Origin: an uncultured Eubacteriales bacterium
GTDB lineage: Bacteria; Bacillota_I; Bacilli_A; RFN20; UBA1709
Assembly: GCA_964367815.1 (NCBI GenBank)
Contig: CAYIYR010000004.1
Location: forward strand, 3,236 to 67,235
Length of the DNA stretch: 64,000 bases
Direction: 5' to 3'
Under the pieces are notes generated by a model. The model saw only the letters and a program-made list of their open reading frames with translations. It ran no database searches and was not told where the DNA came from. Below, one piece after another: positions 13,131 to 60,991 of the stretch (within the stretch, counting starts at the first letter, position 1; each line of letters begins with the position of its first letter). The translations under genes and the position numbers were made by a program.

Positions 13131-13647
13131 GACTTTCTTCTTTCTTTACAATATGTTCTTTAGGCTTCTCATCCTTTTCCAGAAAAATAAAGCTGATCAT
13201 AAGGACAATCGCCCCACAAGTTACTAGCATATCTGCCACATTGAAAACTGGGAAATAACTATTGAAGATTTTGAAAAAATTAAAATCAATAAAATCAATG
13301 ACCTTACCAAATAGGGCCCGATCAATTAAGTTTCCAAAGGCACCAGTAAAGACCATGCTTAAACCAACCTTAGTCAAAAGATGATTCTTACCTTTGAAGT
13401 AATAGACTCCAATAAGAATGCAGGCCAATAAGGAAATACCCGTTAACAGCCAACGCTGTCCGGCCATTGTTCCCCAAGCTGCTCCCTCATTATAAGTCAG
13501 TTGAAAATAGAACCAGTCCTTGATAATTGTAATCACTTTACCACCGGATAATTGGTTTTTAGCAATTACTTTGGTAACTTGATCAGCAATCACTCCGACC
13601 GGAAATATAATCAACAAGAATAAATTTTTCTTTAGGAATTCGCGCAT
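13120..13647 (-). CDS. lspA: Lipoprotein signal peptidase II
   Basis: 175 aa, 4 TM, NEGAAWG and NVADM motifs. Confidence 0.85.
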   Translation of the reverse strand: MREFLKKNLFLLIIFPVGVIADQVTKVIAKNQLSGGKVITIIKDWFYFQLTYNEGAAWGTMAGQRWLLTGISLLACILIGVYYFKGKNHLLTKVGLSMVFTGAFGNLIDRALFGKVIDFIDFNFFKIFNSYFPVFNVADMLVTCGAIVLMISFIFLEKDEKPKEHIVKKEESHEE

Positions 13648-16403
13648 TTCTCTTTTTCCTCATAGCGATGATAGACCGCTGCGCATCTCTCGCAGAGACC
13701 TTCTTCATTTACTTTCTCGAAGTGGTTCCAGCAACGGACACATTTCTGTCCTTGGTGGGCTTCTACTTTAATTTTAACAAAATCGTAGATATTTGCATCT
13801 AAATTTGTAACTTCTTCAACAGAAGAGACAATAAAGAAACGTTCTTTCTCAACTTTTGATAATTGATGATAGATTTTCTTGACCTCTTCATCCATGATTT
13901 CTAAACTGACTTTCGCTTCTTGAGCGGAGCCAATCAAACCATCATTACGTTTTTCTTCTAAGGCTTTTAAAACTTGGGAACGGAGTTTGAGTAAACGCTG
14001 GTATTCGCCGCTTAACTTCGCATCCACAGGTTGATGTTTCGCCATTTCTAGTAATTGGACAGTTGCCTTATCATTATTCATCAAACCATACATTTCTTCC
14101 ATTGTAAATGGAAGCATTGGTGCCAACAAGCGAACCAAAGTATCTAAAATAGTATAGATAACACTTTGAACTTGTCTTCTTCTCAATGAATCATAGGCAT
14201 CACAATAAAGAATGTCCTTGGTAATATCGAGATAGAATGAACTTAAATCAATAGCCATATAATTCAAAATCTCGGTTGAAACGCTGTTGAAATCATAGTT
14301 ATCGTAAGCATCTAATACCTTATTTGTTACTTCTTGTAAACGATTCAAAACATAAGTATCGATGATATCAACCGTAGCAGGTTTGTCCTTAGCATTGTCA
14401 TAAGTACCATAATTGCCATCGCTTAGGTTACCATGTAAGAAGCGGAGCGTGTTTCTAATTTTCCGATAAGATTCGGCGACTTGTTTCAAAATATCATCAG
14501 AAATACGCATATCAGACTGATAATCAATACTGGCAGTCCATAGTCTTAAGATATCGGCGCCATAAACGGAGCAGACTTTATTAGGATCGATAACATTGCC
14601 TAAAGACTTAGACATCTTATTACCCTTGTTATCTAAGGTAAAGCCATGGGAGACAACAGTCTTAAATGGTGATTGACCATTAAAGGCTGTCCCAATCGTA
14701 ATGGAGGAGTTAAACCAGCCACGATATTGATCGCTGCCCTCTAAATAGAGGTCAACAGGATATGGTAAACCTTTTTCTTTAATTACGGCCGTATGCGAAG
14801 AACCAGAATCAAACCAGACATCCATTATGTCTGTCTCTTTCCGATATTTGTTATTTGGTGAATGAGAATTGGTATAACCTTGGGGTAATAGTTCTTGAGC
14901 GGTTCTTTCAAACCAAACGTTTGAGCCATACTCCTTGAACAATTCTACGTAATGGTCAAAAACTTTCTTATCAATAATTGGTGTTTCATCTTCACAATAG
15001 ATGATTGGTAGGGGGACACCCCAAGCTCTCTGACGAGAGATACACCAGTCATAACGATCTCTTATCATATTAGATAGTCGAACATCGCCCCAAGAAGGAT
15101 ACCATTTAACTTTCTTAATCTCACTGAGAATTTTCTCTTTGATTGGATCAATGGAAACAAACCATTGGGCCGTAACTCTAAAGATAATTGGCTTATTTGT
15201 CCGCCAATCATGGGGATAAGAGTGAGTAATTGGTGTTTCTTTTAAGAGCGCACCACATTCAGTTAGCATCTCTAATACTTTAGTATTAGCTTTCCCATAA
15301 AATAGTCCTTCTAACTCAGGACCAGCTTCTTTGGTCATATAGCCCTTATCATCAACTGGACAGAGAATATCAAGATTATATAAACGACCAACATTAAAGT
15401 CATCTTCACCATGGCCAGGAGCGGTATGAACACAACCAGTACCAGCATCTTCGGTAACGTGATCGCCTAAAATAATTGGTGAATAACGATTATATAGTGG
15501 ATGTTTAGTTGTGATGCCCTCTAGTTCTTTACCTTTAAAGGTCTTTCTGAGTTTCATAGATCCTAAGGATAATTCTTTGCCTAATTTCTCTGCTAAACAG
15601 GTTAGAAAGATAAAGACGCCCTTTTCTGTTTCATAGACACCATATTCCAACTTGGCATTTAAACAGATTGCTAAGTTCGCCGGAATTGTCCATGGAGTGG
15701 TTGTCCAAATGATAAAAGACTCATCACCTGTTAATACATTCTTGGTATCAACTACTTTAAAGGCCACATAGATAGAAGATGAAGTAACATCATAGTACTC
15801 AATCTCAGCTTCCGCTAAACAAGATTCACTCGATGGTGACCAATAGACAGGTTTCTTCCCTTTATAGGCTAAACCATCCAGCGCCATCTTGCCAAAAATC
15901 TCTATCTGTTTGGCTTCATACTCTTTATATAAAGTAAGATACGGTTTCTCATAATCACCCATGCTGCCTAGACGAATAAATTCCGCCTTCTGACGAGCCA
16001 CTTGTTGCAAGGCATAATCGCGACACATATCGCGGTATTGAGGCATCGGGATTTCTTTCCGATTGATACCTTTCTTTTGAAGAACCGACTCAATTGGTAA
16101 GCCATGAGTATCCCAACCAGGAGTATATGGTGCTAAAAAGCCTGACATATTCTTATATCTAATGATAAAATCCTTTAAAATCTTATTTAAAGCATGGCCA
16201 ATATGGATATCTCCATTGGCATATGGTGGACCATCATGAAGCATGAAATAAGGTTTACCAGCATTGTTCTTAATAATTAAATTATAAAGATCCATGTCCT
16301 GCCACTTCTTCAATTGAACTGGCTCTTTGACTGCTAGATTACCCCGCATTTCAAACTTGGTTTTCGGCATTGTTAATGAATTTTTGATTTCCATTTTAAT
16401 CAT
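13632..16403 (-). CDS. ileS: Isoleucine--tRNA ligase
   Basis: 923 aa with HIGH (PPYANGDIHIGH) and KMSKS motifs and C-terminal zinc-finger cysteines. Confidence 0.95.
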   Translation of the reverse strand: MIKMEIKNSLTMPKTKFEMRGNLAVKEPVQLKKWQDMDLYNLIIKNNAGKPYFMLHDGPPYANGDIHIGHALNKILKDFIIRYKNMSGFLAPYTPGWDTHGLPIESVLQKKGINRKEIPMPQYRDMCRDYALQQVARQKAEFIRLGSMGDYEKPYLTLYKEYEAKQIEIFGKMALDGLAYKGKKPVYWSPSSESCLAEAEIEYYDVTSSSIYVAFKVVDTKNVLTGDESFIIWTTTPWTIPANLAICLNAKLEYGVYETEKGVFIFLTCLAEKLGKELSLGSMKLRKTFKGKELEGITTKHPLYNRYSPIILGDHVTEDAGTGCVHTAPGHGEDDFNVGRLYNLDILCPVDDKGYMTKEAGPELEGLFYGKANTKVLEMLTECGALLKETPITHSYPHDWRTNKPIIFRVTAQWFVSIDPIKEKILSEIKKVKWYPSWGDVRLSNMIRDRYDWCISRQRAWGVPLPIIYCEDETPIIDKKVFDHYVELFKEYGSNVWFERTAQELLPQGYTNSHSPNNKYRKETDIMDVWFDSGSSHTAVIKEKGLPYPVDLYLEGSDQYRGWFNSSITIGTAFNGQSPFKTVVSHGFTLDNKGNKMSKSLGNVIDPNKVCSVYGADILRLWTASIDYQSDMRISDDILKQVAESYRKIRNTLRFLHGNLSDGNYGTYDNAKDKPATVDIIDTYVLNRLQEVTNKVLDAYDNYDFNSVSTEILNYMAIDLSSFYLDITKDILYCDAYDSLRRRQVQSVIYTILDTLVRLLAPMLPFTMEEMYGLMNNDKATVQLLEMAKHQPVDAKLSGEYQRLLKLRSQVLKALEEKRNDGLIGSAQEAKVSLEIMDEEVKKIYHQLSKVEKERFFIVSSVEEVTNLDANIYDFVKIKVEAHQGQKCVRCWNHFEKVNEEGLCERCAAVYHRYEEKEKCANS

Positions 16404-16411
16404 CCTTTCTA

Positions 16412-16665
16412 AAATAAAAAACGTTCCTATATAATAGGAACGAATTATCGCGGTACCATCCTAGTTCATAGATAAATCTATGCTCTTAATTGCCGTAACG
16501 TGGCTAACGAACTCTTCTACTCATTTCAAAGAATCTCTCCGAAGGGATAATTACTGATAATTCCTCTAGTGTTTCACCAACCCACTAGTCTCTAAAAAGT
16601 CTTTCTCAATAATCTTGTCTTCTTCAACGATTTACAAGACTGATTTTCCCATATTTCATAGTTAT
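16412..16665 (-). promoter_or_regulatory. T-box riboswitch leader of ileS (Ile, AUC specifier candidate), including a promoter and a terminator/antiterminator
   Basis: On the minus strand, the T-box sequence AACTAGGATGGTACCGCG is followed by terminator hairpin CGTTCCTAT-TATA-TAGGAACG plus a U6 run ending just before the ileS RBS. Stem-I region contains GGAATTATCAG with AUC-A as candidate specifier. Upstream is TTGACA-17nt-GAAAAT. Confidence 0.8.
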
Positions 16666-17445: not shown

Positions 17446-18219
17446 TTAAAAATATCTTTTTAATACTTCGATAGCGTTTTTCTCCAAGCGGGAAACTTGG
17501 GCTTGTGATATCCCAAAATCCTCAGCTATCTCTGCTTGGGTACGGTCTAAATAGTAACGATCATTAATTATTTTCTTTTGAAGAATATCTAAATTATCAA
17601 TGCCTTTTTTTAAAGAAAGCATGTCACTTATCTTATCAACGAAATCCGCTTCATAACGAATCTGATCAATTAAATATAAAGGTTCACCATCTTCTTCATA
17701 TACAGGATCATACAAAGAGCCAACACTTTGAACTGATTCCATCGCTTCATCAATTAACTTTTTATCGACTCCCACCAGTGTCCCAATCTCTTCATTATTT
17801 GGTTCCCTTTGATTTCTAATCAGAAATTCTTCTTTGGCTTTCAGCGACAAATAGGCGAGATCTTTTAATTGTCGAGATACTTTAATCGGAGTATTATCAC
17901 GTAAAAAGCGCTTAATCTCGCCACTAATCATAGGAACAGCATAGGTTGAGAAACGAACATTATGACTCAAATCAAAATTTTGAATTGATTTAATCAGACC
18001 GACACAACCAATTTGAAACAAGTCATCTAAGTTATTATGACGATCAGCGAAACGCTGAATAACGCTTAAAACAAGCCTAAGGTTACCGAGGATTAATTCC
18101 TCATATGCTGATTCATCGCCAGTCTTATACGCTTGAATATAATCAATAATCTGCTGATTACTTAATACTTTTAGTTTATTCGTATCAATGCCGCTAATTG
18201 TTACCTTGTATTTTGCCAT
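17446..18219 (-). CDS. sigG: Sporulation sigma factor sigma-G
   Basis: 257 aa. Contains the GNLRLVLSVIQRF region-2 signature and the N-terminal KLKVL motif. Confidence 0.85.
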   Translation of the reverse strand: MAKYKVTISGIDTNKLKVLSNQQIIDYIQAYKTGDESAYEELILGNLRLVLSVIQRFADRHNNLDDLFQIGCVGLIKSIQNFDLSHNVRFSTYAVPMISGEIKRFLRDNTPIKVSRQLKDLAYLSLKAKEEFLIRNQREPNNEEIGTLVGVDKKLIDEAMESVQSVGSLYDPVYEEDGEPLYLIDQIRYEADFVDKISDMLSLKKGIDNLDILQKKIINDRYYLDRTQAEIAEDFGISQAQVSRLEKNAIEVLKRYF

Positions 18220-18256
18220 TAAAAAACTCCTATGTCTAATAGGAGTATGACCAAAT

Positions 18257-18964
18257 TTACATGAGCTTATTCAAACGATTACGCAGTTTCTTTATTATAC
18301 GTTTCTCTAACCTAGATATGTAAGATTGGGAGATACCCAAATACTCTGCTACCTCTTTTTGAGTCATTTCTTCATTGTTATCTAAGCCAAAGCGAAGAAC
18401 TAGTATTTGTCTTTCTCGCTCTCTTAATTCATTGATAGCTTCAAATACTTCATCTTTCTTTTCACTTTGCTCAAGATTATCGACTATTGAATTAGTTTCG
18501 TTGCTAATAATATCGGAAAGCAGTAACTCATTGCCATCATAGTCAATGTTTAATGGCTCATCAAATGATACTTCAGCTTTCATCCGTGATTTCTTTCGCA
18601 GAAACATTAGAATTTCATTCTCAATACAACGCGACGCATAGGTTGCAAGCTTGATGTTCTTATCGGGCTTAAAAGTCTGAATCGCTTTAATTAGTCCGAG
18701 AGTACCAATGCTGATTAAATCTTCGAGATTAGTTAGATTTATTTCATATTTCTTGGCCACATAGACAACTAAGCGTAGATTATGCTCAATCAATTTATCG
18801 CGGGCTTCCATCGATCCTTGACTAAACTTTTCTAAGTAATACTCCTCTTCTTCCTTGCTTAATGGAGGTGGTAATGTTTCAGAACCATTAATGTAATATA
18901 CTTCACCATCTCTAATAATCAAATGTAGAATTCTTTTTAAACGATTAAGTAATTTCATCATCAT
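18257..18964 (-). CDS. sigE: Sporulation sigma factor sigma-E (pro-sigma-E)
   Basis: 235 aa. Pro-sequence followed by [20 protein letters not shown] and [14 protein letters not shown], matching the SigE signature. Confidence 0.85.
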
Positions 18965-18970
18965 TTCCTC

Positions 18971-19699
18971 CTAAATAAGCAAGACATTCAATAGACAATC
19001 ACAGCCATAAAAATCATAATTTCCGCTAACTTTCGCAACTAAGACTCTCTGTCTTATATGCTTACACTTATGTTTTAATTCAATCTCACCGATAACTAGT
19101 TGATTAGGGTCATATTCAATCATTTTGGTTGGTGGTGTACAGATATTGGTTTGTTTGATAAAAATAACTGGCAATTCTTTGACTGTCAAACTATTGCCGG
19201 AGTCGTAGTACCCTTTCAGTTTCAAACTCTTCCCTTCACTTATCAAAATGAACTGATAAGTAAACTGCTGATGCCGGATGTATTTGCATAGTTTGATCAA
19301 TACAAAGCGCATAATCAGACCCGCAAGTAACATCGAAATATAAATGAAAAGCGCCATCGTGTTTTTAGCAAGCGGTAAAATTCCGGCTAAGTGAATCTGA
19401 TTAATAAATAAGCTCTCAATTAGAACAACACTAAAGTAAAAAAAGAAATAGATTAAAACTTCTTTAATATGTATTTGATAATATATGCATACTATTATTA
19501 GCAAATAGATGGCGCCTAGATACCAACTGCTGCGATAAAAAATTATTACTAGTGAAGATGCAAATATGAAAGCTATTTTTAACAAGAGTTTTCTTCTTTT
19601 TCCTACTATCGATGCCGTATAAAGTGTTGCTGCTAATGCATTAAGAAGCAGGCCCAAAAAAGAGAGATCAACATAGACATTCATATCATCACCGGTCAT
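18971..19699 (-). CDS. spoIIGA: Sigma-E processing peptidase SpoIIGA
   Basis: 242 aa. Multi-TM N-terminus and C-terminal aspartic-protease motif GYYDSGNSL. Lies upstream of sigE as in Bacillus. Confidence 0.75.
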   Translation of the reverse strand: MTGDDMNVYVDLSFLGLLLNALAATLYTASIVGKRRKLLLKIAFIFASSLVIIFYRSSWYLGAIYLLIIVCIYYQIHIKEVLIYFFFYFSVVLIESLFINQIHLAGILPLAKNTMALFIYISMLLAGLIMRFVLIKLCKYIRHQQFTYQFILISEGKSLKLKGYYDSGNSLTVKELPVIFIKQTNICTPPTKMIEYDPNQLVIGEIELKHKCKHIRQRVLVAKVSGNYDFYGCDCLLNVLLI

Positions 19700-35545: not shown

Positions 35546-35778
35546 ATTATCTATAATTCATTATAAACTACCTTGATAAACTATACTAGAGCAAAAGAAA
35601 TATACCCATGTCCAATAATTGCATTATAGAACTCGCTATGGTAAAATTATTGTACACCAAATGAACATATGGTGAATCCGAGCCATTATGTCCTAAAAAT
35701 ATTGATAAATATTCACGGCTATTGGCCGGGGTATAATTGGAAACGGTTATGCCTTCCATTGTGAAAAGGAGAGAAAGA

Positions 35779-36756
35779 ATGAAGAAAAAGTTGTTCAAGT
35801 TTTTTGCTGCCTTTGTAGCAGCATGCAGCATCTGCACTATCGCAGTAGGCTGTAAAAATGATGGAATCGAACTGAAGATTCTAAAAGAAGAAGATGACAG
35901 CATGATCAACACCTACGCGATGATAGCAGTTGATCCAAATGCACCATTTATCTCATCGACTGATGGTTCTGCCCTAGCAGCTGGATCTGTATCTATCAAT
36001 ACAGCAGGAGCTGATGCATTCATCGAATGGATGAGTAGTAGCGCAGGTCGTAATTTGATTAAGGACTATGGAAAAGCCGATTACGATGAGTATTTATTCT
36101 ATTTATTAGACACCGCTGAAACTTATAGTGGAACTATCGCTGCGGCAACCTCTGCAACCAAGACAATTCGTTTATCGACAACAACGTCTGTCAATGATAG
36201 TGGGCTGCTTAGCGCAATTGTACCAACATTTGAAAAAGATTATGGCTATGAAGTCAAGATATCTTCCGCCGGAACAGGCAAAGCAATTGCGGCAGCCACT
36301 TATGGAAATGCCGATCTAATCCTAGTCCACTCAAAGTCACAAGAAGAAACATTTATTAATGCGCACTATGCAAGAAAAGTGGCCTCTTTTAAACAAGAAA
36401 GACTAGCATTCATGTATAACTATTTTGTTTTAGTCGGGCCGAAAAAAGACCCTGCCAAAGTAGCTGATGCTGCCAACGTTAAGGAAGCCTTTAAAAAGAT
36501 TTCTGATGGCAGCTACACCTTTATTTCACGTGGTGATAAGAGCGGTACACATACAAAAGAAATTTCCTTATGGGATTCAACGCTAAAGATTACAACTGAA
36601 GCTACTAGTGTCAAAAATTATCCTTGGTATGTTTCAGCAAATGCTGGTATGGGTGTCTGCTTAACTCAAGCGAATGAAAAAGGTGCTTATATCTTATCCG
36701 ATAAGGCAACATTCTTAACCTTTAAAGCCAACCGTGGAATTATGCTTCAAGCATAG
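35779..36756 (+). CDS. tupA: Tungstate/molybdate ABC transporter substrate-binding protein (TupA/WtpA-like)
   Basis: Lipoprotein signal (AACSICTIAVGCKNDG) and anion-binding PBP fold with SRGDKSGTHTKE motif. Context is Moco and tungsten-enzyme genes. Confidence 0.65.
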   Translation: MKKKLFKFFAAFVAACSICTIAVGCKNDGIELKILKEEDDSMINTYAMIAVDPNAPFISSTDGSALAAGSVSINTAGADAFIEWMSSSAGRNLIKDYGKADYDEYLFYLLDTAETYSGTIAAATSATKTIRLSTTTSVNDSGLLSAIVPTFEKDYGYEVKISSAGTGKAIAAATYGNADLILVHSKSQEETFINAHYARKVASFKQERLAFMYNYFVLVGPKKDPAKVADAANVKEAFKKISDGSYTFISRGDKSGTHTKEISLWDSTLKITTEATSVKNYPWYVSANAGMGVCLTQANEKGAYILSDKATFLTFKANRGIMLQA

Positions 36757-36776: not shown

Positions 36777-37472
36777 ATGAAAGATGCATTTAGACAAGCC
36801 TTTGAACTAATCTTTAGTGGTGACATTGAATTAATTAACATCGTTCGTACCACTTTAATCATGAGCGTATCAAGTTCCCTTATTTCCCTAATAATTGGTG
36901 TGCCTTTAGGAGTTTTGCTTGCTTATAATGATTTCAAGGGAAAAAAAGTTGTAACAATTATTGTTCGCACATTAACTGGTGTCCCACCGGTTGTCTGTGG
37001 ATTGTTTTGTTATATGCTTTTTTCTGGGGTTGGACCCCTTGGCTTTATGCATCTTCTTTTTTCTATTCCTGGTATGATAGTGGCTCAAGTTTTGTTAATC
37101 ACTCCAATAATCATTGCTACTACCGAAACATTTGTAGCAACCATTACTGTTCGGATTAAGGAGACAGCCATGGGTCTGGGCCTTAGTAAGGGCAAAGCCT
37201 TTCTATTAACCGTTAACGAAAGTAAATATCAAATTTTTTCTACTTATTTGTTAGGATTTTCTCGAGCTATTGCAGAAGTTGGAGCTGTTTCCATGGTCGG
37301 TGGAGGTATTGCATGGCATACTAATGTTATGACAACCGCTATCGCTCAATATACAGGAATGGGGAATTTTGATAAAGCATTTGCTTTGGGAATTATTCTC
37401 CTATTATTAGCTTTAATCTTCAACATAGTGATGTTTATCATCCAAGGACGGCTAAAATATGATAATAAATAA
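36777..37472 (+). CDS. tupB: Tungstate/molybdate ABC transporter permease (TupB-like)
   Basis: 231 aa, 5-6 TM binding-protein-dependent permease. Confidence 0.7.
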   Translation: MKDAFRQAFELIFSGDIELINIVRTTLIMSVSSSLISLIIGVPLGVLLAYNDFKGKKVVTIIVRTLTGVPPVVCGLFCYMLFSGVGPLGFMHLLFSIPGMIVAQVLLITPIIIATTETFVATITVRIKETAMGLGLSKGKAFLLTVNESKYQIFSTYLLGFSRAIAEVGAVSMVGGGIAWHTNVMTTAIAQYTGMGNFDKAFALGIILLLLALIFNIVMFIIQGRLKYDNK

Positions 37473-38124
37473 TTTAACTAAAACATTTAAAGGCAAACAA
37501 GTCTTAAATATTTCAAGCTTTACTTTTGAGCCCAATAGAATTTATGCGATTATTGGAGCTAATGGCAGCGGTAAATCTACTCTCGGGAAATGTTTGGCGG
37601 GAATAATTCCTGCTGATAGCCCAAGTTCTATTGAGAAAAGCAATCAAAAAATTGGCTATCTTCCCCAAGTAAATTACGCTTTTGCCATGTCGGCCTGGAA
37701 GAATATTATGTTAGGTTGTACTAATGAAATTCAAAAAGAAAAAGCCAAAAAATATATGGAAGAACTTGATTTCACTTCCTTAGCTAAGCAGTTTGCACCA
37801 AAACTATCTGGTGGCGAAATTGCTAAAATGGCATTGATTCGCTTGCTTATTCATGATAATGATTTCTTAGTTCTTGATGAACCAACGGCTTCCTTAGATG
37901 TTAAATCAACACTTACTGCTGAAAGATTAATTAAAAACCATCAAGAGGAAAGACAAAGCACTATTATTATAATTACTCATTCAATCAAGCAAGCGCTTCG
38001 ACTTGCCGATGAAGTTCTCTTTCTAAATGATGGACAGCTACTAGAATATGGAGCAGTTCAAGAGGTTATTAATCAGCCAAAAAATGATCTGCTTAAGGAA
38101 TTCATTAAATTATTAGCAATTTAA
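37459..38124 (+). CDS. tupC: Tungstate/molybdate ABC transporter ATP-binding protein (TupC-like, no TOBE domain)
   Basis: 221 aa with Walker A GANGSGKST, LSGGE, and LVLDEP. Confidence 0.7.
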   Translation: MIINNLTKTFKGKQVLNISSFTFEPNRIYAIIGANGSGKSTLGKCLAGIIPADSPSSIEKSNQKIGYLPQVNYAFAMSAWKNIMLGCTNEIQKEKAKKYMEELDFTSLAKQFAPKLSGGEIAKMALIRLLIHDNDFLVLDEPTASLDVKSTLTAERLIKNHQEERQSTIIIITHSIKQALRLADEVLFLNDGQLLEYGAVQEVINQPKNDLLKEFIKLLAI

Positions 38125-57169: not shown

Positions 57170-57295
57170 ATTTTAATCACCATTTTAATCTATGTTTTAA
57201 TCTTTCTAATCATTCTAGCAATAGCTAAGTTTGACAGTTTGCCCTAGCTATACTATTATTTAGAAAGAAAATATTTTCTTTTAAAGGAGACTTCT

Positions 57296-57664
57296 ATGAA
57301 ATTTTTTGTAAAACTAGCTTTCCTATTTGGCTTACTCATATTTGATGTTGTTCCTGTCCCTATGGCCTGCGATAATCCGCAAAGACAAATGACCGTCTAC
57401 TTTGTTGATAGTACCCAACATTGGCCATCGGACGAAGATAGCATCTATGGCACCGTGGTCATAAAGATTAATTCCACCTTAAAAGAGGAGCAATTAATCA
57501 CTCCCACTAAGGACGGATATACATTTGATTATTGGGCCTATGATGAAAAAGGTGAAGAACCATTTAATCTTTCAGATAAGATGACCACGACTTATAACAA
57601 GCCTATTTGTAAATACTGTCGCTTACTATATGCTATTTGGACTGAGAACACAGCAGATGCTTAA
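57296..57664 (+). CDS. Small secreted protein with one Listeria-Bacteroides (Flg_new) repeat
   Basis: 122 aa. Signal peptide and PTKDGYTFDYWAYDEKGEEPFN motif. Sigma-A-like promoter TTGACA-17-TATTAT upstream. Confidence 0.55.
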   Translation: MKFFVKLAFLFGLLIFDVVPVPMACDNPQRQMTVYFVDSTQHWPSDEDSIYGTVVIKINSTLKEEQLITPTKDGYTFDYWAYDEKGEEPFNLSDKMTTTYNKPICKYCRLLYAIWTENTADA

Positions 57665-58682
57665 AAATAAGACAATAAAAGTAATCGTTCTTTCATTGCT
57701 GCATTTAGTTGTAGATTTTTTGTGTGCTTATATTGTTGTTACCAAGCTCTACAACCGCGTTGATAATAATCAAGTTTATACCGTTTTTATCATCTATAAT
57801 CTTTTGGCTTTTGTCACACAACCTCTAGTTGGACTGCTAATTGACAAAGCGAAAAATGAGAAAGTCTTCCTAAATGGATCTCTGGTTCTTCTCATAATTG
57901 GTTGTTTGGTTTTTCGTTCTTTCTGGATATCGGTAATCCTGTTAGGATTAGGCAATTCTTTCTTTCATGTAGCTGGAGGCAAGATTACTTATAATACTGC
58001 CAACAATAAGCTGAAAAACCTTGGCATATTTGTTTCATTAGGTGCCATTGGATTGACAGCAGGCATGTATTTTTCTTATTCATCTGTTTTGATAACTATT
58101 GTTGTAATGCTTGCCATACTTACCATAATCTTTAACTTGCTAAAGGAAGAAGTAGTTGAGATTACACCTGTCCCAATGAAACAGTCATCACCACGCAACA
58201 TTTTCTTAATCATAGCGTTGATGTTTATTGTTCTGCTTAGAGGAATTATTGGCAAGGGAATAAATTTTGGCTGGCCTAGCACAAATGTTGACTGGTTATT
58301 CATTGCTATTGCCATTAGCCTAGGCAAGATTTTAGGTGGTATTCTAGCGGATTCCATCGGAATAAAACTAACCGCTATCATAACCATGGCTATTTCTGTA
58401 ATTTGTTTGGGTTTCTTACCTAATTATATGATAGCAACTCTTATTGGCTTAGTAGCATTCAATGCTACCATGCCGATAACATTATATCTTTTGAATTCAC
58501 GGCTAATAAATCACGAGGGTCTTTCCTTCGGCTTATTAGCAGCAACTCTTTTCCCTGGCTACCTAATTGGAACAGAAATAAGTGCTATCGCTTTAAATCC
58601 CATAATTCAAATGCTTGTTACGGCCTTTTTCACGCTAGCAATCATCATTTATGTAAACAAAAAGGAGGTAATCCTCCCATGA
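57657..58682 (+). CDS. Polytopic membrane protein, possibly MFS-like
   Basis: About 341 aa from MLKNKTIKV, 10 or more TM helices; GLLIDKAKNEKVF resembles MFS motif A. Overlaps both neighbours, suggesting an operon. Confidence 0.45.
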   Translation: MLKNKTIKVIVLSLLHLVVDFLCAYIVVTKLYNRVDNNQVYTVFIIYNLLAFVTQPLVGLLIDKAKNEKVFLNGSLVLLIIGCLVFRSFWISVILLGLGNSFFHVAGGKITYNTANNKLKNLGIFVSLGAIGLTAGMYFSYSSVLITIVVMLAILTIIFNLLKEEVVEITPVPMKQSSPRNIFLIIALMFIVLLRGIIGKGINFGWPSTNVDWLFIAIAISLGKILGGILADSIGIKLTAIITMAISVICLGFLPNYMIATLIGLVAFNATMPITLYLLNSRLINHEGLSFGLLAATLFPGYLIGTEISAIALNPIIQMLVTAFFTLAIIIYVNKKEVILP

Positions 58683-59020
58683 TTGATATTTGGCTGCTTA
58701 TCTTTAATCTTTGCTTCACAATTATTATTGAGTTGCTTGTATTCTTCTGCTTACGAATCAAAGACAATCGCTTGTTTAAAAGATTATTCTTAGTTAATTT
58801 ACTAACTAATGTCCCTGTGAACATCATGCTTCAATTATTAATCACTCTGCCACCACTATACTATTGGCTAATAACTATTGCAGCGGAAATTGCAGTAGTA
58901 ATCGTTGAAGCCGAAATATACAATCATATAATTAACAACAAAAAGAAATCCTACCAGCTTTCGCTTGTCTGTAATTTGATTAGTTTTCTAATTGGAATAA
59001 TTATTGGTTTAATCTTCTAA
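58679..59020 (+). CDS. Small hydrophobic membrane protein, unknown function
   Basis: 113 aa with three predicted TM helices; ATGA overlap with the upstream gene. Confidence 0.4.
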   Translation: MIDIWLLIFNLCFTIIIELLVFFCLRIKDNRLFKRLFLVNLLTNVPVNIMLQLLITLPPLYYWLITIAAEIAVVIVEAEIYNHIINNKKKSYQLSLVCNLISFLIGIIIGLIF

Positions 59021-59070
59021 TAAAAATCTTAGCTTATAAATGGCGACCGTCAATGAATTAATTTATTCAC

Positions 59071-60870
59071 TTAGTCTTCATTCCCTCCTTTGGGATTATA
59101 ATCAGCTGGTATTGTAACCTTTGCATCCGTACCAACACCAATTGTTGAAGTAACATAAAGTGATGAACCTTCAATTACTTTTAATATCCGATACTTAATG
59201 TTTTTAATCCCGCAGCAATCAATTTTGCCGGAAAGTTCACTATAATTAAAACCTACTCCATCATCAATAATTTCTACGATGTAGTTTTGACCTTCTTTGT
59301 AAGTCTTGATTGTTACCGTTCCCCCATTCGCTTTCTTAGAAATACCATGTTTAATGGCATTTTCAACTAACGGCTGGATTGTTAATGGTGGAACAAAGAA
59401 ATCTTTCTCCTTAATATCATAATTAACATGTAAACGATCACTAGAATTAACTAATTCTAGATTAACATAAGTTTCTATATGCTCAAGTTCTTTGGAAAAA
59501 GGAATCGGATCCGAATTGCTAATGGTATTGATATTTGACCTTAGATAATTCGAAAGATCACAGATCATTTTATCAGCTTTTTGGGGCGACTTCAGAATCA
59601 TTGCTCGAATGACATCAAGGGTATTATAGAGGAAATTCGGCCTAATTTGACTCATCATCAGTTGAATTCGGCTATCTTGTAGCTGGAGTGTCAAATGCTG
59701 ATTCTCTTCTAACTTCGCAGATAAACGATAGATAATAAGTAAGGCTTGGATTAGAATATAAGCCGATGTAAAAATCATAAAGCAATACTTATTATCAACA
59801 TAACCATTTACCAAGTAGCTAGATGTAATGTGAGCACAGCCAAAGAAAAGTAAAGTATAAGCAATAAATTCGGTCTTGGCAAAGCGAATTTTCTTTTTGA
59901 CTAAGCGATAAATTAGGATACCACAAGAAGCTGCTACCATTGTCATTAAAAGAATTGCTGATACAATTACTGTTTCGCCTAAATCATAAATTCCCAATAC
60001 TTGCAATAACCAGCAAACTAAGAAATACAAAGTGAAGAATACCATCAAAAGATTAATCCAACGATTAAAAACATGGGGACTCTTCTCTTTTATGAATGCT
60101 AAAAAAGGGAATGGTAAAAGTAGCAAGGCGAAATACAATACTAGTGAACTAATATAAGAGTTTATAAAGCCGAATTCCGGCAAAGGAGTTAAGGCAAAGA
60201 TCATAACAGCAACTATCATTGCTGTCTCGGCAATATACCTGACACTCTTCACCTTTAATCTGGGATTCTTGATAGTAAAATAGTAGATAAAGAAAACAAT
60301 TCCCATCGCAAATAAAACAATTCCAAAAATGCAATCAAATAAACTATTATTTAGCAGGAAATTCCGGACTTTTCCTTCATTTCCCATATAGATATCATTA
60401 ACTCTTCCATTATAAAAATTATAATTAGAATGAATACTTAATTCGATCTGTTTGCTGGAATCAGTACTATCAACATTAATCAAATTCCAATTGTTTGGTG
60501 AACTCTTACCGCCAATTACACTAGACCTTACATCATATTCATAAACCTTGATGCCATCTATTGAGGCAATGACTTCAGAATTAAGTGAATAAAAAGCAAT
60601 AACATAGCCATCGGGAATATCAGAAGGCAATGTATTATAAATGATTAATGTCTCTCCAGTCTTTAGTTTCACGCGGTTTGAGAAATCTAAGTCAATCTTT
60701 TCTCCGTCTTTATAATAAAACCATCCTGAATTATAATTGGATATCATTGTTTGAGTCTGAATATTTCCGCTTCGAAAACTATAAATGAACGCTACAAAAA
60801 CCGTAAACGTCGCCATAGCGCATAGGACAATAATTGAAAATCGTTGCACTCGCCTTTTCCACTTCTTCAT
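59071..60870 (-). CDS. 7TM-receptor (7TMR-DISM-like) sensor histidine kinase of the LytS/YesM (PF06580) family with the phospho-acceptor His replaced by Asn
   Basis: 599 aa. Signal/TM, a roughly 150-aa extracytoplasmic domain, 7 TM helices, then an H-box region SQIRPNFLYNTL (family consensus ..P-H-FL.N.L) and an intact HATPase_c (LVENAIKHG, DDGVGF). The Asn codon AAT was read directly from the DNA. No response regulator is adjacent. Confidence 0.75.
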   Translation of the reverse strand: MKKWKRRVQRFSIIVLCAMATFTVFVAFIYSFRSGNIQTQTMISNYNSGWFYYKDGEKIDLDFSNRVKLKTGETLIIYNTLPSDIPDGYVIAFYSLNSEVIASIDGIKVYEYDVRSSVIGGKSSPNNWNLINVDSTDSSKQIELSIHSNYNFYNGRVNDIYMGNEGKVRNFLLNNSLFDCIFGIVLFAMGIVFFIYYFTIKNPRLKVKSVRYIAETAMIVAVMIFALTPLPEFGFINSYISSLVLYFALLLLPFPFLAFIKEKSPHVFNRWINLLMVFFTLYFLVCWLLQVLGIYDLGETVIVSAILLMTMVAASCGILIYRLVKKKIRFAKTEFIAYTLLFFGCAHITSSYLVNGYVDNKYCFMIFTSAYILIQALLIIYRLSAKLEENQHLTLQLQDSRIQLMMSQIRPNFLYNTLDVIRAMILKSPQKADKMICDLSNYLRSNINTISNSDPIPFSKELEHIETYVNLELVNSSDRLHVNYDIKEKDFFVPPLTIQPLVENAIKHGISKKANGGTVTIKTYKEGQNYIVEIIDDGVGFNYSELSGKIDCCGIKNIKYRILKVIEGSSLYVTSTIGVGTDAKVTIPADYNPKGGNED

Positions 60871-60949
60871 ATGATACCCTCAAAGTTTGTTCTTTATTTT
60901 ATAATACTACTATATCACTCAATAGTAAAATATTTTTTTATTAAGTTAA

Positions 60950-60988
60950 TAAAAAACCTACCAGATGTTTCCAGTAGGGTTTTTTTCA
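60950..60988. terminator. Terminator downstream of rsmH (bidirectional hairpin with flanking A/T runs)
   Basis: CCTAC...GTAGG stem with inner wobble pairs, an A6 run upstream and a T7 run downstream. Confidence 0.5.
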
Positions 60989-60991
60989 TAT

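What the first reader, a model, noticed from the sequence alone, without database searches (positions are those of the whole stretch)
59071..60870. Orphan 7TM sensor kinase whose phospho-acceptor His is replaced by Asn
The protein has the LytS/YesM-type His_kinase region plus an intact HATPase_c (N-box LVENAIKHG, G1 DDGVGF). The position equivalent to the phosphorylatable His in the H-box is Asn (QIRP-N-FLYNTL; DNA reads CCG AAT TTC), a single-nt difference from CAT. N-terminally it has a signal/TM, a roughly 150-aa extracellular domain and 7 TM helices, resembling the 7TMR-DISM architecture. There is no response regulator nearby; YesM-type kinases normally pair with an AraC-type RR. It sits inside the dcw cluster between rsmH and the PBP gene. 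The cause could be a sequencing error, a recent inactivation, or a pseudokinase that signals by protein-protein interaction.
Basis: partly seen in the sequence, partly recalled or inferred. Interest (0 to 1): 0.7.

Follow-up and report, generated by a model that had tools for sequence, protein, structure and literature searches.

The report
Orphan kinase-dead membrane sensor protein
An intact bacterial membrane sensor of the histidine-kinase family has lost the histidine it would phosphorylate and its partner regulator but kept its ATP-binding domain, a combination that is under purifying selection in an unrelated lineage and so may be a signalling pseudokinase rather than a broken gene.

Summary
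Window 59071-60870(-) encodes an intact 599-aa PF06580 (LytS/YesM-type) sensor: TM anchor, CBM-like jelly-roll ectodomain, seven TM helices, DHp and a complete ATP-binding domain. The phospho-acceptor of the P-H-F H-box is Asn412 (AAT); all 119 homologues have His. Two further residues at least 98% conserved in active kinases (R475, F476) are also replaced, while every N/G1/G2 residue is kept. This rules out a single-base sequencing error. All six homologue contexts examined have a receiver gene directly downstream; the window has none on either strand. The gene lies in a 3.8-kb insertion in the dcw cluster where relatives carry a small ftsL-like gene. It has no orthologue above 32% identity, so selection on it cannot be measured. 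An independent Clostridia clade (L115, P0242-P0244) shows the same triad: His lost (N/N/N/S), regulator gene lost, ATP-binding motifs intact. Its dN/dS is 0.18, and its His-bearing orthologue keeps its regulator. Best reading (about 0.5): a histidine pseudokinase signalling by protein contacts, like RetS, RocA or DivL but with an intact CA domain. Main rival (about 0.3): a decaying remnant. It is a new variant of a known kind, of moderate interest.

The parts
59071..60870 (-). CDS of the 599-aa PF06580-type sensor protein that lacks the phospho-acceptor His
59635..59637 (-). Codon AAT = Asn412, in place of the phospho-acceptor His of the P-H-F H-box
59443..59448 (-). Codons 475-476 (Asn-Ser) replacing the 'RF' motif at the DHp-CA junction; this motif is at least 98% conserved in His-bearing kinases and is often lost in His-less ones
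60343..60783 (-). Extracytoplasmic domain (residues 30-176) with a CBM-like beta-jelly-roll fold
59731..60342 (-). Seven-TM block (residues 177-380); TM7 is continuous with DHp helix 1
   Evidence: PF07695 is sub-threshold
59431..59670 (-). DHp / PF06580 His_kinase domain (residues 401-480)
59107..59379 (-). HATPase_c catalytic/ATP-binding domain (residues 498-588) with N, G1, G2 and G3 motifs intact
60957..60978 (-). Terminator-like hairpin plus T-run immediately after rsmH and upstream of the kinase-like gene
60877..60929 (-). Promoter-like site (TTTACT-17-TATTAT, 60929..60901) and RBS GAGGG (60881..60877) of the kinase-like gene
57170..60991 (.). 3.8-kb segment inserted between rsmH and the PBP gene, holding the kinase-like gene and three convergent plus-strand genes (57296-57664, 57630-58682, 58679-59020); relatives have a 79-aa ftsL-like gene here

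Best explanation
The gene encodes a real, intact, separately transcribed membrane receptor derived from a PF06580 two-component kinase. It can no longer autophosphorylate at the canonical site (His412 is Asn, and the His-linked R475/F476 motif is lost), and it no longer has its cognate response-regulator gene. It is therefore a histidine pseudokinase. Shown here: the architecture (TM anchor, CBM-like ectodomain, 7 TM helices, DHp, complete ATP-binding domain), the missing His, the missing regulator, and its position in an insertion within the dcw cluster. Inferred: it still senses an extracellular ligand, probably glycan-like, and still binds ATP. Its output would be by protein-protein contact with a genuine kinase or a regulator encoded elsewhere. 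That could be modulation of a partner kinase as RetS and RocA do, binding of a phosphorylated regulator as DivL does, or phosphatase action as in NtrB(H139N). It would not be by His-to-Asp phosphotransfer.
For: The His column is 119/119 and 238/238 His in homologues, and Asn here. The column is anchored by PDB 6swj and by BtsS H382 (PMC10653868). The ORF is intact with its own RBS and promoter. At conserved family columns it deviates at only 3 of 43, within the family range of 0-8, so there is no general decay. All ATP-binding residues are kept (E503, N504, H508, D536, G538, G540, G554, N557), as is Asn416 of the H-box, whereas H412, R475 and F476 are lost. Non-Phe at position 476 occurs in 5 of 7 His-less lineages against 2 of 238 His-bearing sequences (p=6e-8, or 0.003 against 22 non-redundant representatives). 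The regulator gene is adjacent in 6 of 6 homologue contexts and absent from the window. An independent precedent exists in L115, P0242, P0243 and P0244, which are 72-76% identical to each other. All four lack His (N, N, N, S; the codon path CAT>AAC>AGC fits a single ancestral loss), all keep the N/G1/G2/G3 motifs, and neither of the two with context data (L115, P0244) has an adjacent regulator. Their His-bearing orthologue P0245 has an overlapping REC gene. dN/dS between the two His-less genes is 0.18 at dS 0.97. Histidine pseudokinases that signal by protein contacts are documented: RocA (PMC7028121), and PsmA and DivL (PMC12963549). NRII(H139N) acts only as a phosphatase (10.1101/122606).
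Against: No orthologue above 32% identity exists in 5.8 billion proteins, so neither selection on this gene nor the age of the His loss can be measured. No partner kinase or regulator has been identified, and only 64 kb of the genome is visible. The concentration of deviations in DHp over CA is only suggestive (5/25 against 1/29, p=0.085). The sequence comes from a single assembly. The two independent Logan contigs of the same strain stop 24-79 nt before the gene, so the codon has no independent support. The L115 precedent is an analogy from a protein that is 32% identical, not evidence about this gene.
Confidence: 0.5

Rival explanations
1. It is a decaying remnant. A two-component kinase gene lost its regulator, possibly when the 3.8-kb segment was acquired or rearranged, and is now drifting. 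The His and RF changes would be the first hits, with the rest of the gene not yet degraded.
For: The gene is orphaned and sits in an insertion that related genomes lack. It is a singleton with no orthologues. The deviations fall in the part of the protein that has no use without phosphotransfer. The DHp-versus-CA contrast is not statistically significant.
Against: The 599-codon ORF is fully open with a good RBS and promoter. All of about 29 conserved CA columns are kept apart from one conservative I>V change, and the total deviation at conserved columns is ordinary for the family. Three hits at phosphorylation-linked positions and none at ATP-binding positions is the pattern seen in the L115 clade, which is demonstrably under purifying selection.
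Confidence: 0.3
2. It is a sequencing or assembly error, or a very recent strain-private mutation, in an otherwise active kinase whose regulator is encoded elsewhere.
For: AAT is one base from CAT. There is only a single assembly and no independent coverage of the codon. The CA domain is perfectly intact.
Against: R475N and F476S are additional changes at positions 98-99% conserved among His-bearing kinases, and they need several further base changes. The adjacent regulator found in 6 of 6 homologues is missing, and that cannot be a base-call error. Position 476 co-varies with His loss in other lineages.
Confidence: 0.05
3. It is still a phospho-signalling enzyme through a non-canonical route. 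Its intact CA domain could phosphorylate the His of a paralogous kinase in a heterodimer, or another residue could act as acceptor.
For: The ATP-binding motifs are fully conserved here and across the His-less L115 clade, which suggests nucleotide binding or hydrolysis is still selected for. Tandem kinase plus His-less paralogue pairs exist in metagenomes.
Against: No other His lies on DHp helix 1 near position 412. The only nearby His, H464, is conserved throughout the family and so is not compensatory. No paralogue occurs in the window. The tandem His-less paralogues have degraded N and G2 boxes, so they are not trans-kinases.
Confidence: 0.1

Closest known systems
RetS (Pseudomonas aeruginosa), a 7TMR-DISM hybrid sensor that acts on GacS
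   Same: It has a jelly-roll (DISMED2/CBM-like) periplasmic domain, 7 TM helices and a kinase core. The RetS periplasmic domain 3jyb is among the weak fold hits of the ectodomain. From established knowledge, its output is by direct kinase-kinase interaction and not by its own autophosphorylation.
   Different: RetS has a HisKA-type core with receiver domains and retains its His. The protein here has a PF06580 DHp, no receiver, and His replaced by Asn. The Pfam 7TMR-DISM models do not reach threshold.
RocA (group A Streptococcus), an orphan membrane histidine pseudokinase
   Same: It is a Firmicute, orphan, multi-TM kinase-like protein with no regulator of its own, and it works by contacting the genuine kinase CovS (PMC7028121).
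   Different: RocA keeps a dispensable His246 and lacks kinase activity (PMC7028121); from established knowledge its catalytic domain is degenerate. Here the His is gone and the CA domain is intact. RocA has 6 TM helices and no ectodomain.
DivL (Caulobacter) and PsmA (Streptomyces), histidine pseudokinases
   Same: The phospho-acceptor His is naturally replaced (Tyr in DivL; Glu/Asp/Gln/Val/Tyr in PsmA), and signalling is by protein-protein interaction (PMC12963549; PMC4211667).
   Different: Both have HisKA-type cores and PAS inputs. PsmA's ATP-binding motifs are degenerate. Neither is a 7-TM receptor.
GanS, BtsS and LytS: active PF06580 (LytS/YesM-type) histidine kinases
   Same: They share the DHp family and H-box context (P-x-F-L-[FY]-N). 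The GanS kinase domain 6swk is the best structural match. BtsS is also a 7-TM receptor (PMC10653868).
   Different: They have the His (BtsS H382 is the proven site) and a cognate regulator. The protein here has neither.
NtrB/NRII H139N, a laboratory mutant
   Same: It carries the same His-to-Asn substitution at the phospho-acceptor. It is kinase-dead but retains phosphatase activity (10.1101/122606).
   Different: It is an engineered mutant of a soluble HisKA kinase that still has its cognate regulator.
L115 / P0242 / P0243 / P0244 clade
   Same: These are PF06580 proteins with His lost (N/N/N/S) and the CA domain intact. The two with context data (L115, P0244) have no adjacent regulator. L115, P0242 and P0244 keep the H-box Asn four residues downstream; P0243 has His there.
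   Different: They are only 32% identical to the window protein, about 420 aa long, and have no ectodomain. Most members keep the RF motif. Selection is demonstrated there (dN/dS 0.18) but cannot be tested here.

Membership tests
PF06580 (LytS/YesM-type) sensor histidine kinase | DHp domain matching PF06580 above the gathering score | tested here: met
   68.5 bits against a cutoff of 25.2, residues 401-480
PF06580 (LytS/YesM-type) sensor histidine kinase | HATPase_c domain with N, G1 and G2 nucleotide-binding motifs | tested here: met
   27.2 against 26.4 bits; E503, N504, K507, H508, G509, D536, G538, G540, G554 and N557 all present
PF06580 (LytS/YesM-type) sensor histidine kinase | Phospho-acceptor His in the P-H-F H-box | tested here: not met
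   Asn412, against His in 119/119 and 238/238 homologues; site defined by BtsS H382
PF06580 (LytS/YesM-type) sensor histidine kinase | Cognate response regulator (adjacent gene in this subfamily) | tested here: not met
   REC gene downstream in 6 of 6 homologue contexts; none in the 64-kb window; the rest of the genome was not visible
PF06580 (LytS/YesM-type) sensor histidine kinase | Autophosphorylation activity | not testable with these tools
   Requires an in-vitro assay with labelled ATP, using Mn2+ as for BtsS
YesM/YesN-type pairing (AraC-type regulator) | Partner regulator with an HTH_AraC output domain | tested here: not met
   The partners of the closest homologues match only Response_reg; at E<=1 there is no AraC or LytTR hit, only a chance-level, sub-threshold Borrelia_orfA match in one of the three
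7TMR-DISM receptors | 7TMR-DISM_7TM (PF07695) match | tested here: not met
   13.6 bits against a cutoff of 29 (E=0.062); only 3 of 34 family members hit it, best E=2e-6
7TMR-DISM receptors | DISMED1/DISMED2 extracellular domain (PF07696/PF07697) | tested here: inconclusive
   No Pfam hit. The AF2 ectodomain is a CBM-like jelly roll with weak Foldseek hits (E about 1e-3) that include the RetS periplasmic domain 3jyb
7TMR-DISM receptors | Ectodomain followed by seven TM helices | tested here: met
   Hydropathy and the AF2 model with helices at 165-200, 208-227, 238-263, 266-291, 297-325, 331-355 and 361 onward
Bacterial histidine pseudokinases (DivL, RocA, PsmA type) | Histidine-kinase fold with the phospho-acceptor absent or dispensable | tested here: met
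Bacterial histidine pseudokinases (DivL, RocA, PsmA type) | His-less state maintained by selection among orthologues | not testable with these tools
   No orthologue above 32% identity. The criterion is met in the analogous L115 clade (dN/dS 0.18), but that is analogy only
Bacterial histidine pseudokinases (DivL, RocA, PsmA type) | Regulatory function through binding a kinase or regulator partner | not testable with these tools
   Needs the complete genome plus two-hybrid, co-IP or genetic tests

The most novel reading that the evidence does not exclude
PF06580 receptors that have lost both the phospho-acceptor His and the cognate regulator, but keep a fully conserved ATP-binding domain under purifying selection, would form a recurrent and undescribed class of ATP-dependent histidine pseudokinases. 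They would be distinct from DivL, RocA and PsmA, whose catalytic domains are degenerate or dispensable. The copy in this window has a glycan-binding-like ectodomain and replaces the ftsL-like gene between rsmH and the division PBP. It might couple a cell-envelope or glycan cue to another kinase or to the division machinery.
Probability: 0.2. Interest if true: 0.7.

Novelty: new variant of a known kind. Interest (0 to 1): 0.5.

Why it matters
Histidine pseudokinases are few, and each known case (DivL, RocA, RetS-like action, PsmA) revealed a signalling logic that does not rely on phosphotransfer. This analysis found natural His-less members of the LytS/YesM (PF06580) family. Some are tandem, fully degenerate paralogues of active kinases. 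A second type, which includes the window protein, lacks both the His and the regulator but keeps a perfect ATP-binding domain. In one clade of that second type the state is under purifying selection. This raises a testable question: what is the ATP-binding domain of a kinase used for when nothing is left to phosphorylate? It also flags residues 475-476 (the 'RF' motif) as functionally coupled to the phospho-acceptor His in this poorly studied kinase family. On the practical side, genome annotation pipelines will label such proteins 'sensor histidine kinase' and count them as orphan kinases, which inflates the inferred signalling capacity.

Tried and rejected
1. An exact look-up of the protein's contig found nothing on record.

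The best hit was 64% identical, and none of the 80 dcw loci had a kinase next to rsmH.

3. Two Logan contigs of the same strain (ERR5324274, ERR5325469) are 100% identical to the window but end at 60949 and 60894, before the kinase ATG. They give no independent check of the codon.

4. The contig from the 80%-RsmH relative (L133) ends 110 nt after rsmH. Its last codons (MLYRN) resemble the window PBP start (MLFRS), but the nucleotide alignment scores no better than shuffles. This is too weak to use.

5. The search for insertion scars around the 3.8-kb segment returned only short AT-rich matches, which are probably chance.

6. The afdb50 fold library was unavailable.

7. Literature searches for PF06580 or LytS-family pseudokinases found no description of one.

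8. An alternative phospho-acceptor His near position 412 does not exist. H464 is conserved across the family and so is not compensatory.

9. A role as a clostridial-type orphan Spo0A kinase was considered, because the window encodes spoIIGA, sigE and sigG. It was set aside because the protein cannot autophosphorylate and, from established knowledge, those kinases are HisKA-type.

10. A test for general decay was negative: 3 of 43 conserved columns deviate, against a family range of 0-8.

11. No homologue of the relatives' ftsL-like gene was detected in the window. This is inconclusive because such genes are poorly conserved.
Full report
**1. The observation**

The ORF at 59071..60870 on the minus strand is real and encodes 599 aa. 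Pfam places a PF06580 His_kinase (DHp) domain at residues 401-480 (E=6e-19) and HATPase_c at 498-588, just above its cutoff. 7TMR-DISM_7TM is sub-threshold (13.6 against 29 bits), and no DISMED ectodomain model matches.

The H-box reads SQIRPNFLYNTL. Asn412 is codon AAT at 59637..59635, one base away from CAT.

In LytS-type kinases the phospho-acceptor is the His that follows a Pro and precedes a Phe. BtsS His382 is the proven site, and its H382Q variant is not phosphorylated (PMC10653868). The only solved relative, the GanS kinase domain (6swj/6swk), aligns SQINPHFLFN onto the window motif. All 119 database homologues carry His at this column.

**2. Anatomy**

Hydropathy and an AlphaFold model (pLDDT 83) give the following layout:
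- a positive-inside N-terminal TM helix;
- a beta-rich ectodomain of about 147 aa (residues 30-176);
- seven TM helices (about residues 165-380), with TM7 running without a break into the DHp helix that carries Asn412;
- two further DHp helices;
- an alpha/beta ATP-binding domain.

Modelled alone, the ectodomain (pLDDT 86, pTM 0.80) is a jelly roll. Its best but weak Foldseek matches (E about 1e-3) are carbohydrate-binding modules CBM35, CBM51 and CBM6, the GH2 sugar-binding domain and, lower in the list, the RetS periplasmic domain 3jyb. Only 3 of 34 family members reach PF07695 and none reaches PF07696. The 7TMR-DISM resemblance is therefore architectural and fold-level, not family membership.

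The gene has its own signals:
- a terminator-like hairpin follows rsmH at 60978..60957;
- a promoter-like site lies at 60929..60901;
- a GAGGG ribosome-binding site sits 7 nt upstream of the ATG.

**3. Is the gene decaying?**

Against 21 non-redundant family representatives, the protein deviates at 3 of 43 columns that are at least 90% conserved. Other members deviate at 0-8, so there is no general decay.

The deviations are not randomly placed. Every nucleotide-binding residue is kept: E503, N504, K507, H508, G509, D536, G538, G540, G554, N557, R561, G580 and T581. So is Asn416, four residues after the acceptor position. The non-conservative changes are H412N, R475N and F476S, plus F439L, and all lie in the DHp domain.

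Across 238 His-bearing sequences from two subfamilies, position 475 is Arg in 234 and position 476 is Phe in 236. Among seven independent His-less lineages, position 476 is non-Phe in five. Fisher's test gives p=6e-8, or 0.003 against 22 non-redundant His-bearing representatives. The DHp-versus-CA contrast within the window protein is only suggestive (5/25 against 1/29, p=0.085).

Three changed codons at positions tied to the phospho-acceptor cannot be a single base-call error. They also argue that the His was not lost very recently.

**4. Orphan status and context**

In six of six homologue contexts a 259-271-aa receiver-domain gene lies immediately downstream. The three partners scanned against Pfam match only Response_reg, so they are neither AraC-type nor LytTR-type.

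The window has no receiver domain on either strand. This holds for tblastn with those regulators plus CheY and Spo0F and for an HMM search of all ORFs of 50 aa or more. Only 50 bp separate the kinase stop from a convergent gene, which leaves no room for a remnant.

The neighbourhood runs mraZ-rsmH-[kinase-like gene]-[three plus-strand genes]-PBP-murE-mraY. The three plus-strand genes encode a secreted Listeria-Bacteroides-repeat protein, an MFS-like membrane protein and a 113-aa membrane protein.

The nearest relative with a long contig has 67% RsmH identity and 66% PBP identity. Its order is mraZ-rsmH-(79-aa TM and coiled-coil, ftsL-like gene)-PBP-murE-mraY-murD. None of 80 related dcw loci has a kinase at this position. 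The 3.8-kb segment 57170-60991 is therefore an insertion. Its GC content is 0.336, against 0.39-0.40 in the flanks. It occupies the place of the ftsL-like gene, for which no homologue is detectable in the window.

**5. Orthologues and independent sequence support**

The protein has one exact database entry and nothing closer than 32% identity among 5.8 billion proteins. An orthologue comparison is therefore impossible.

The identical RsmH occurs on two Logan contigs (ERR5324274, ERR5325469). Both are 100% identical to the window, but they end 79 and 24 nt before the kinase start codon, so they do not cover the codon.

**6. Does the His-less state occur elsewhere?**

A degenerate DNA scan of metagenome contigs for S-Q-I-x-P-N-F-[LIMV]-[YF]-N-x-L gave 44 loci, of which about ten are genuine PF06580 genes. 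They fall into two types.

- **Tandem pairs.** Loci L106/L125/L126/L127 and L098/L121 pair a canonical P-H-F kinase with a P-N-F paralogue, next to a receiver gene. The paralogue's N-box and G2 are also degraded. These are fully degenerate pseudokinases that are conserved across contigs.
- **L115.** This is a 420-aa protein with the same SQIRPNFLYNTL H-box and intact N, G1 and G2 motifs. The gene that follows it encodes an LRR surface protein, not a regulator.

L115 has a dense orthologue series. L115, P0242 (98%), P0243 (75%) and P0244 (72%) form a subclade in which none has His (N, N, N, S), while all ATP-binding motifs are perfect. P0267 has Asp. The other 115 orthologues with a readable H-box have His.

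The codons CAT (His-bearing orthologue), AAC (L115) and AGC (P0244) fit a single ancestral loss followed by N>S. The His-bearing orthologue P0245 has an overlapping 267-aa receiver gene. His-less P0244 and L115 have no regulator beside them and sit next to LRR_5 genes. dN/dS between the two His-less genes is 0.18 at dS 0.97.

In an independent lineage, then, the triad of lost His, lost regulator and intact CA domain is a maintained, selected state.

**7. Interpretation**

The window protein shows the same triad. The best-supported reading is a histidine pseudokinase: a receptor that still senses through its ectodomain and 7-TM bundle, probably still binds ATP, and signals through protein contacts. 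Documented precedents for that mode are:
- RocA, which contacts CovS (PMC7028121);
- DivL and PsmA (PMC12963549);
- RetS, which acts on GacS (established knowledge);
- NRII(H139N), the same substitution, which acts purely as a phosphatase (10.1101/122606).

The retained Asn416 and the intact CA domain are compatible with regulator binding, with phosphatase action, or with an ATP-dependent switch. None of these was shown here.

I put this reading at about 0.5. The alternatives are:
- a non-functional remnant that has not yet accumulated disabling mutations, about 0.3, because selection on this particular gene cannot be measured;
- non-canonical phospho-signalling, about 0.1;
- a sequencing error or a brand-new mutation, about 0.05.

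**8. Comparison and novelty**

By homology the protein belongs to the PF06580 family. It fails two defining functional features of a sensor histidine kinase, the acceptor His and the cognate regulator, and should not be filed as one.

Histidine pseudokinases are a known kind. The difference here is the PF06580 scaffold and the fully conserved ATP-binding domain, which is degenerate or dispensable in RocA and PsmA. I found no description of such proteins in the searchable literature, although that library is incomplete.

Verdict: a new variant of a known kind. The interest is moderate (0.5), and comes mainly from the recurrent, selected His-less and CA-intact state and from the His-RF co-variation. 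It comes less from this singleton gene.

Noticed in passing
window 57170-60991: The kinase-like gene and three convergent plus-strand genes form a 3.8-kb, lower-GC insertion between rsmH and the division PBP gene. The three genes are 57296-57664 (secreted Listeria-Bacteroides-repeat protein), 57630-58682 (MFS-like) and 58679-59020 (113-aa membrane protein). Relatives (L134, L135) carry a 79-aa ftsL-like gene at this position, and no ftsL-like homologue is detectable in the window.
   Followed up: partly
window 60957-60978 (-): A terminator-like hairpin with a T-run lies directly after rsmH. The mraZ-rsmH unit therefore appears to be transcriptionally separated from the PBP-murE-mraY part of the dcw cluster.
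   Followed up: no
L106 1955-4342; L125; L126; L127; L121 2874-5086; L098: Metagenome loci carry tandem pairs of a canonical PF06580 kinase (P-H-F, intact N and G2 boxes) and a paralogue with P-N-F and degraded N and G2 boxes, next to a receiver gene. These look like conserved kinase/pseudokinase pairs.
   Followed up: partly
L115 465-1724; L136 2803-4086; proteins P0242-P0244, P0267: A Clostridia subclade of PF06580 proteins has lost the acceptor His (N/N/N/S; Asp in P0267) and the adjacent regulator but keeps perfect ATP-binding motifs. dN/dS is 0.18. Both members with context data sit next to LRR_5 surface-protein genes.
   Followed up: yes
window 59443-59448 (residues 475-476), and the same column in all aligned homologues: The 'RF' motif at the DHp-CA junction co-varies with the phospho-acceptor His. 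Position 476 is non-Phe in 5 of 7 His-less lineages against 2 of 238 His-bearing sequences. This suggests a role in the phosphoryl chemistry of PF06580 kinases.
   Followed up: partly
L081 7849-8640; L082 2019-2834; L083 7767-8564: The response regulators paired with this kinase subfamily (259-271 aa) have a receiver domain plus a C-terminal domain of about 140 aa with no Pfam match. This may be an undescribed output domain.
   Followed up: no
window 16433-16636 (-): A T-box leader (122.8 bits) lies upstream of the 923-aa ORF at 13632-16403, which is probably an aminoacyl-tRNA synthetase.
   Followed up: no
window 35664-35787 (+): A molybdenum-cofactor riboswitch lies upstream of 35737-36756. 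The next two genes encode an ABC permease (36777-37472) and an ABC ATPase (37459-38124), so this is probably a molybdate or tungstate transporter operon.
   Followed up: no
window 17446-19699 (-): A spoIIGA-sigE-sigG sporulation cluster shows that the source is an endospore-forming Firmicute. The nearest RsmH relatives are uncultured 'Bacilli bacterium' and Erysipelotrichaceae-like MAGs at 64-67% identity.
   Followed up: partly
L001 9579-13226: In 'Bacillales bacterium UBA1709', rsmH is followed directly by ftsA and ftsZ, with no PBP or mur genes within 10 kb. This is a strongly reduced dcw cluster.
   Followed up: no
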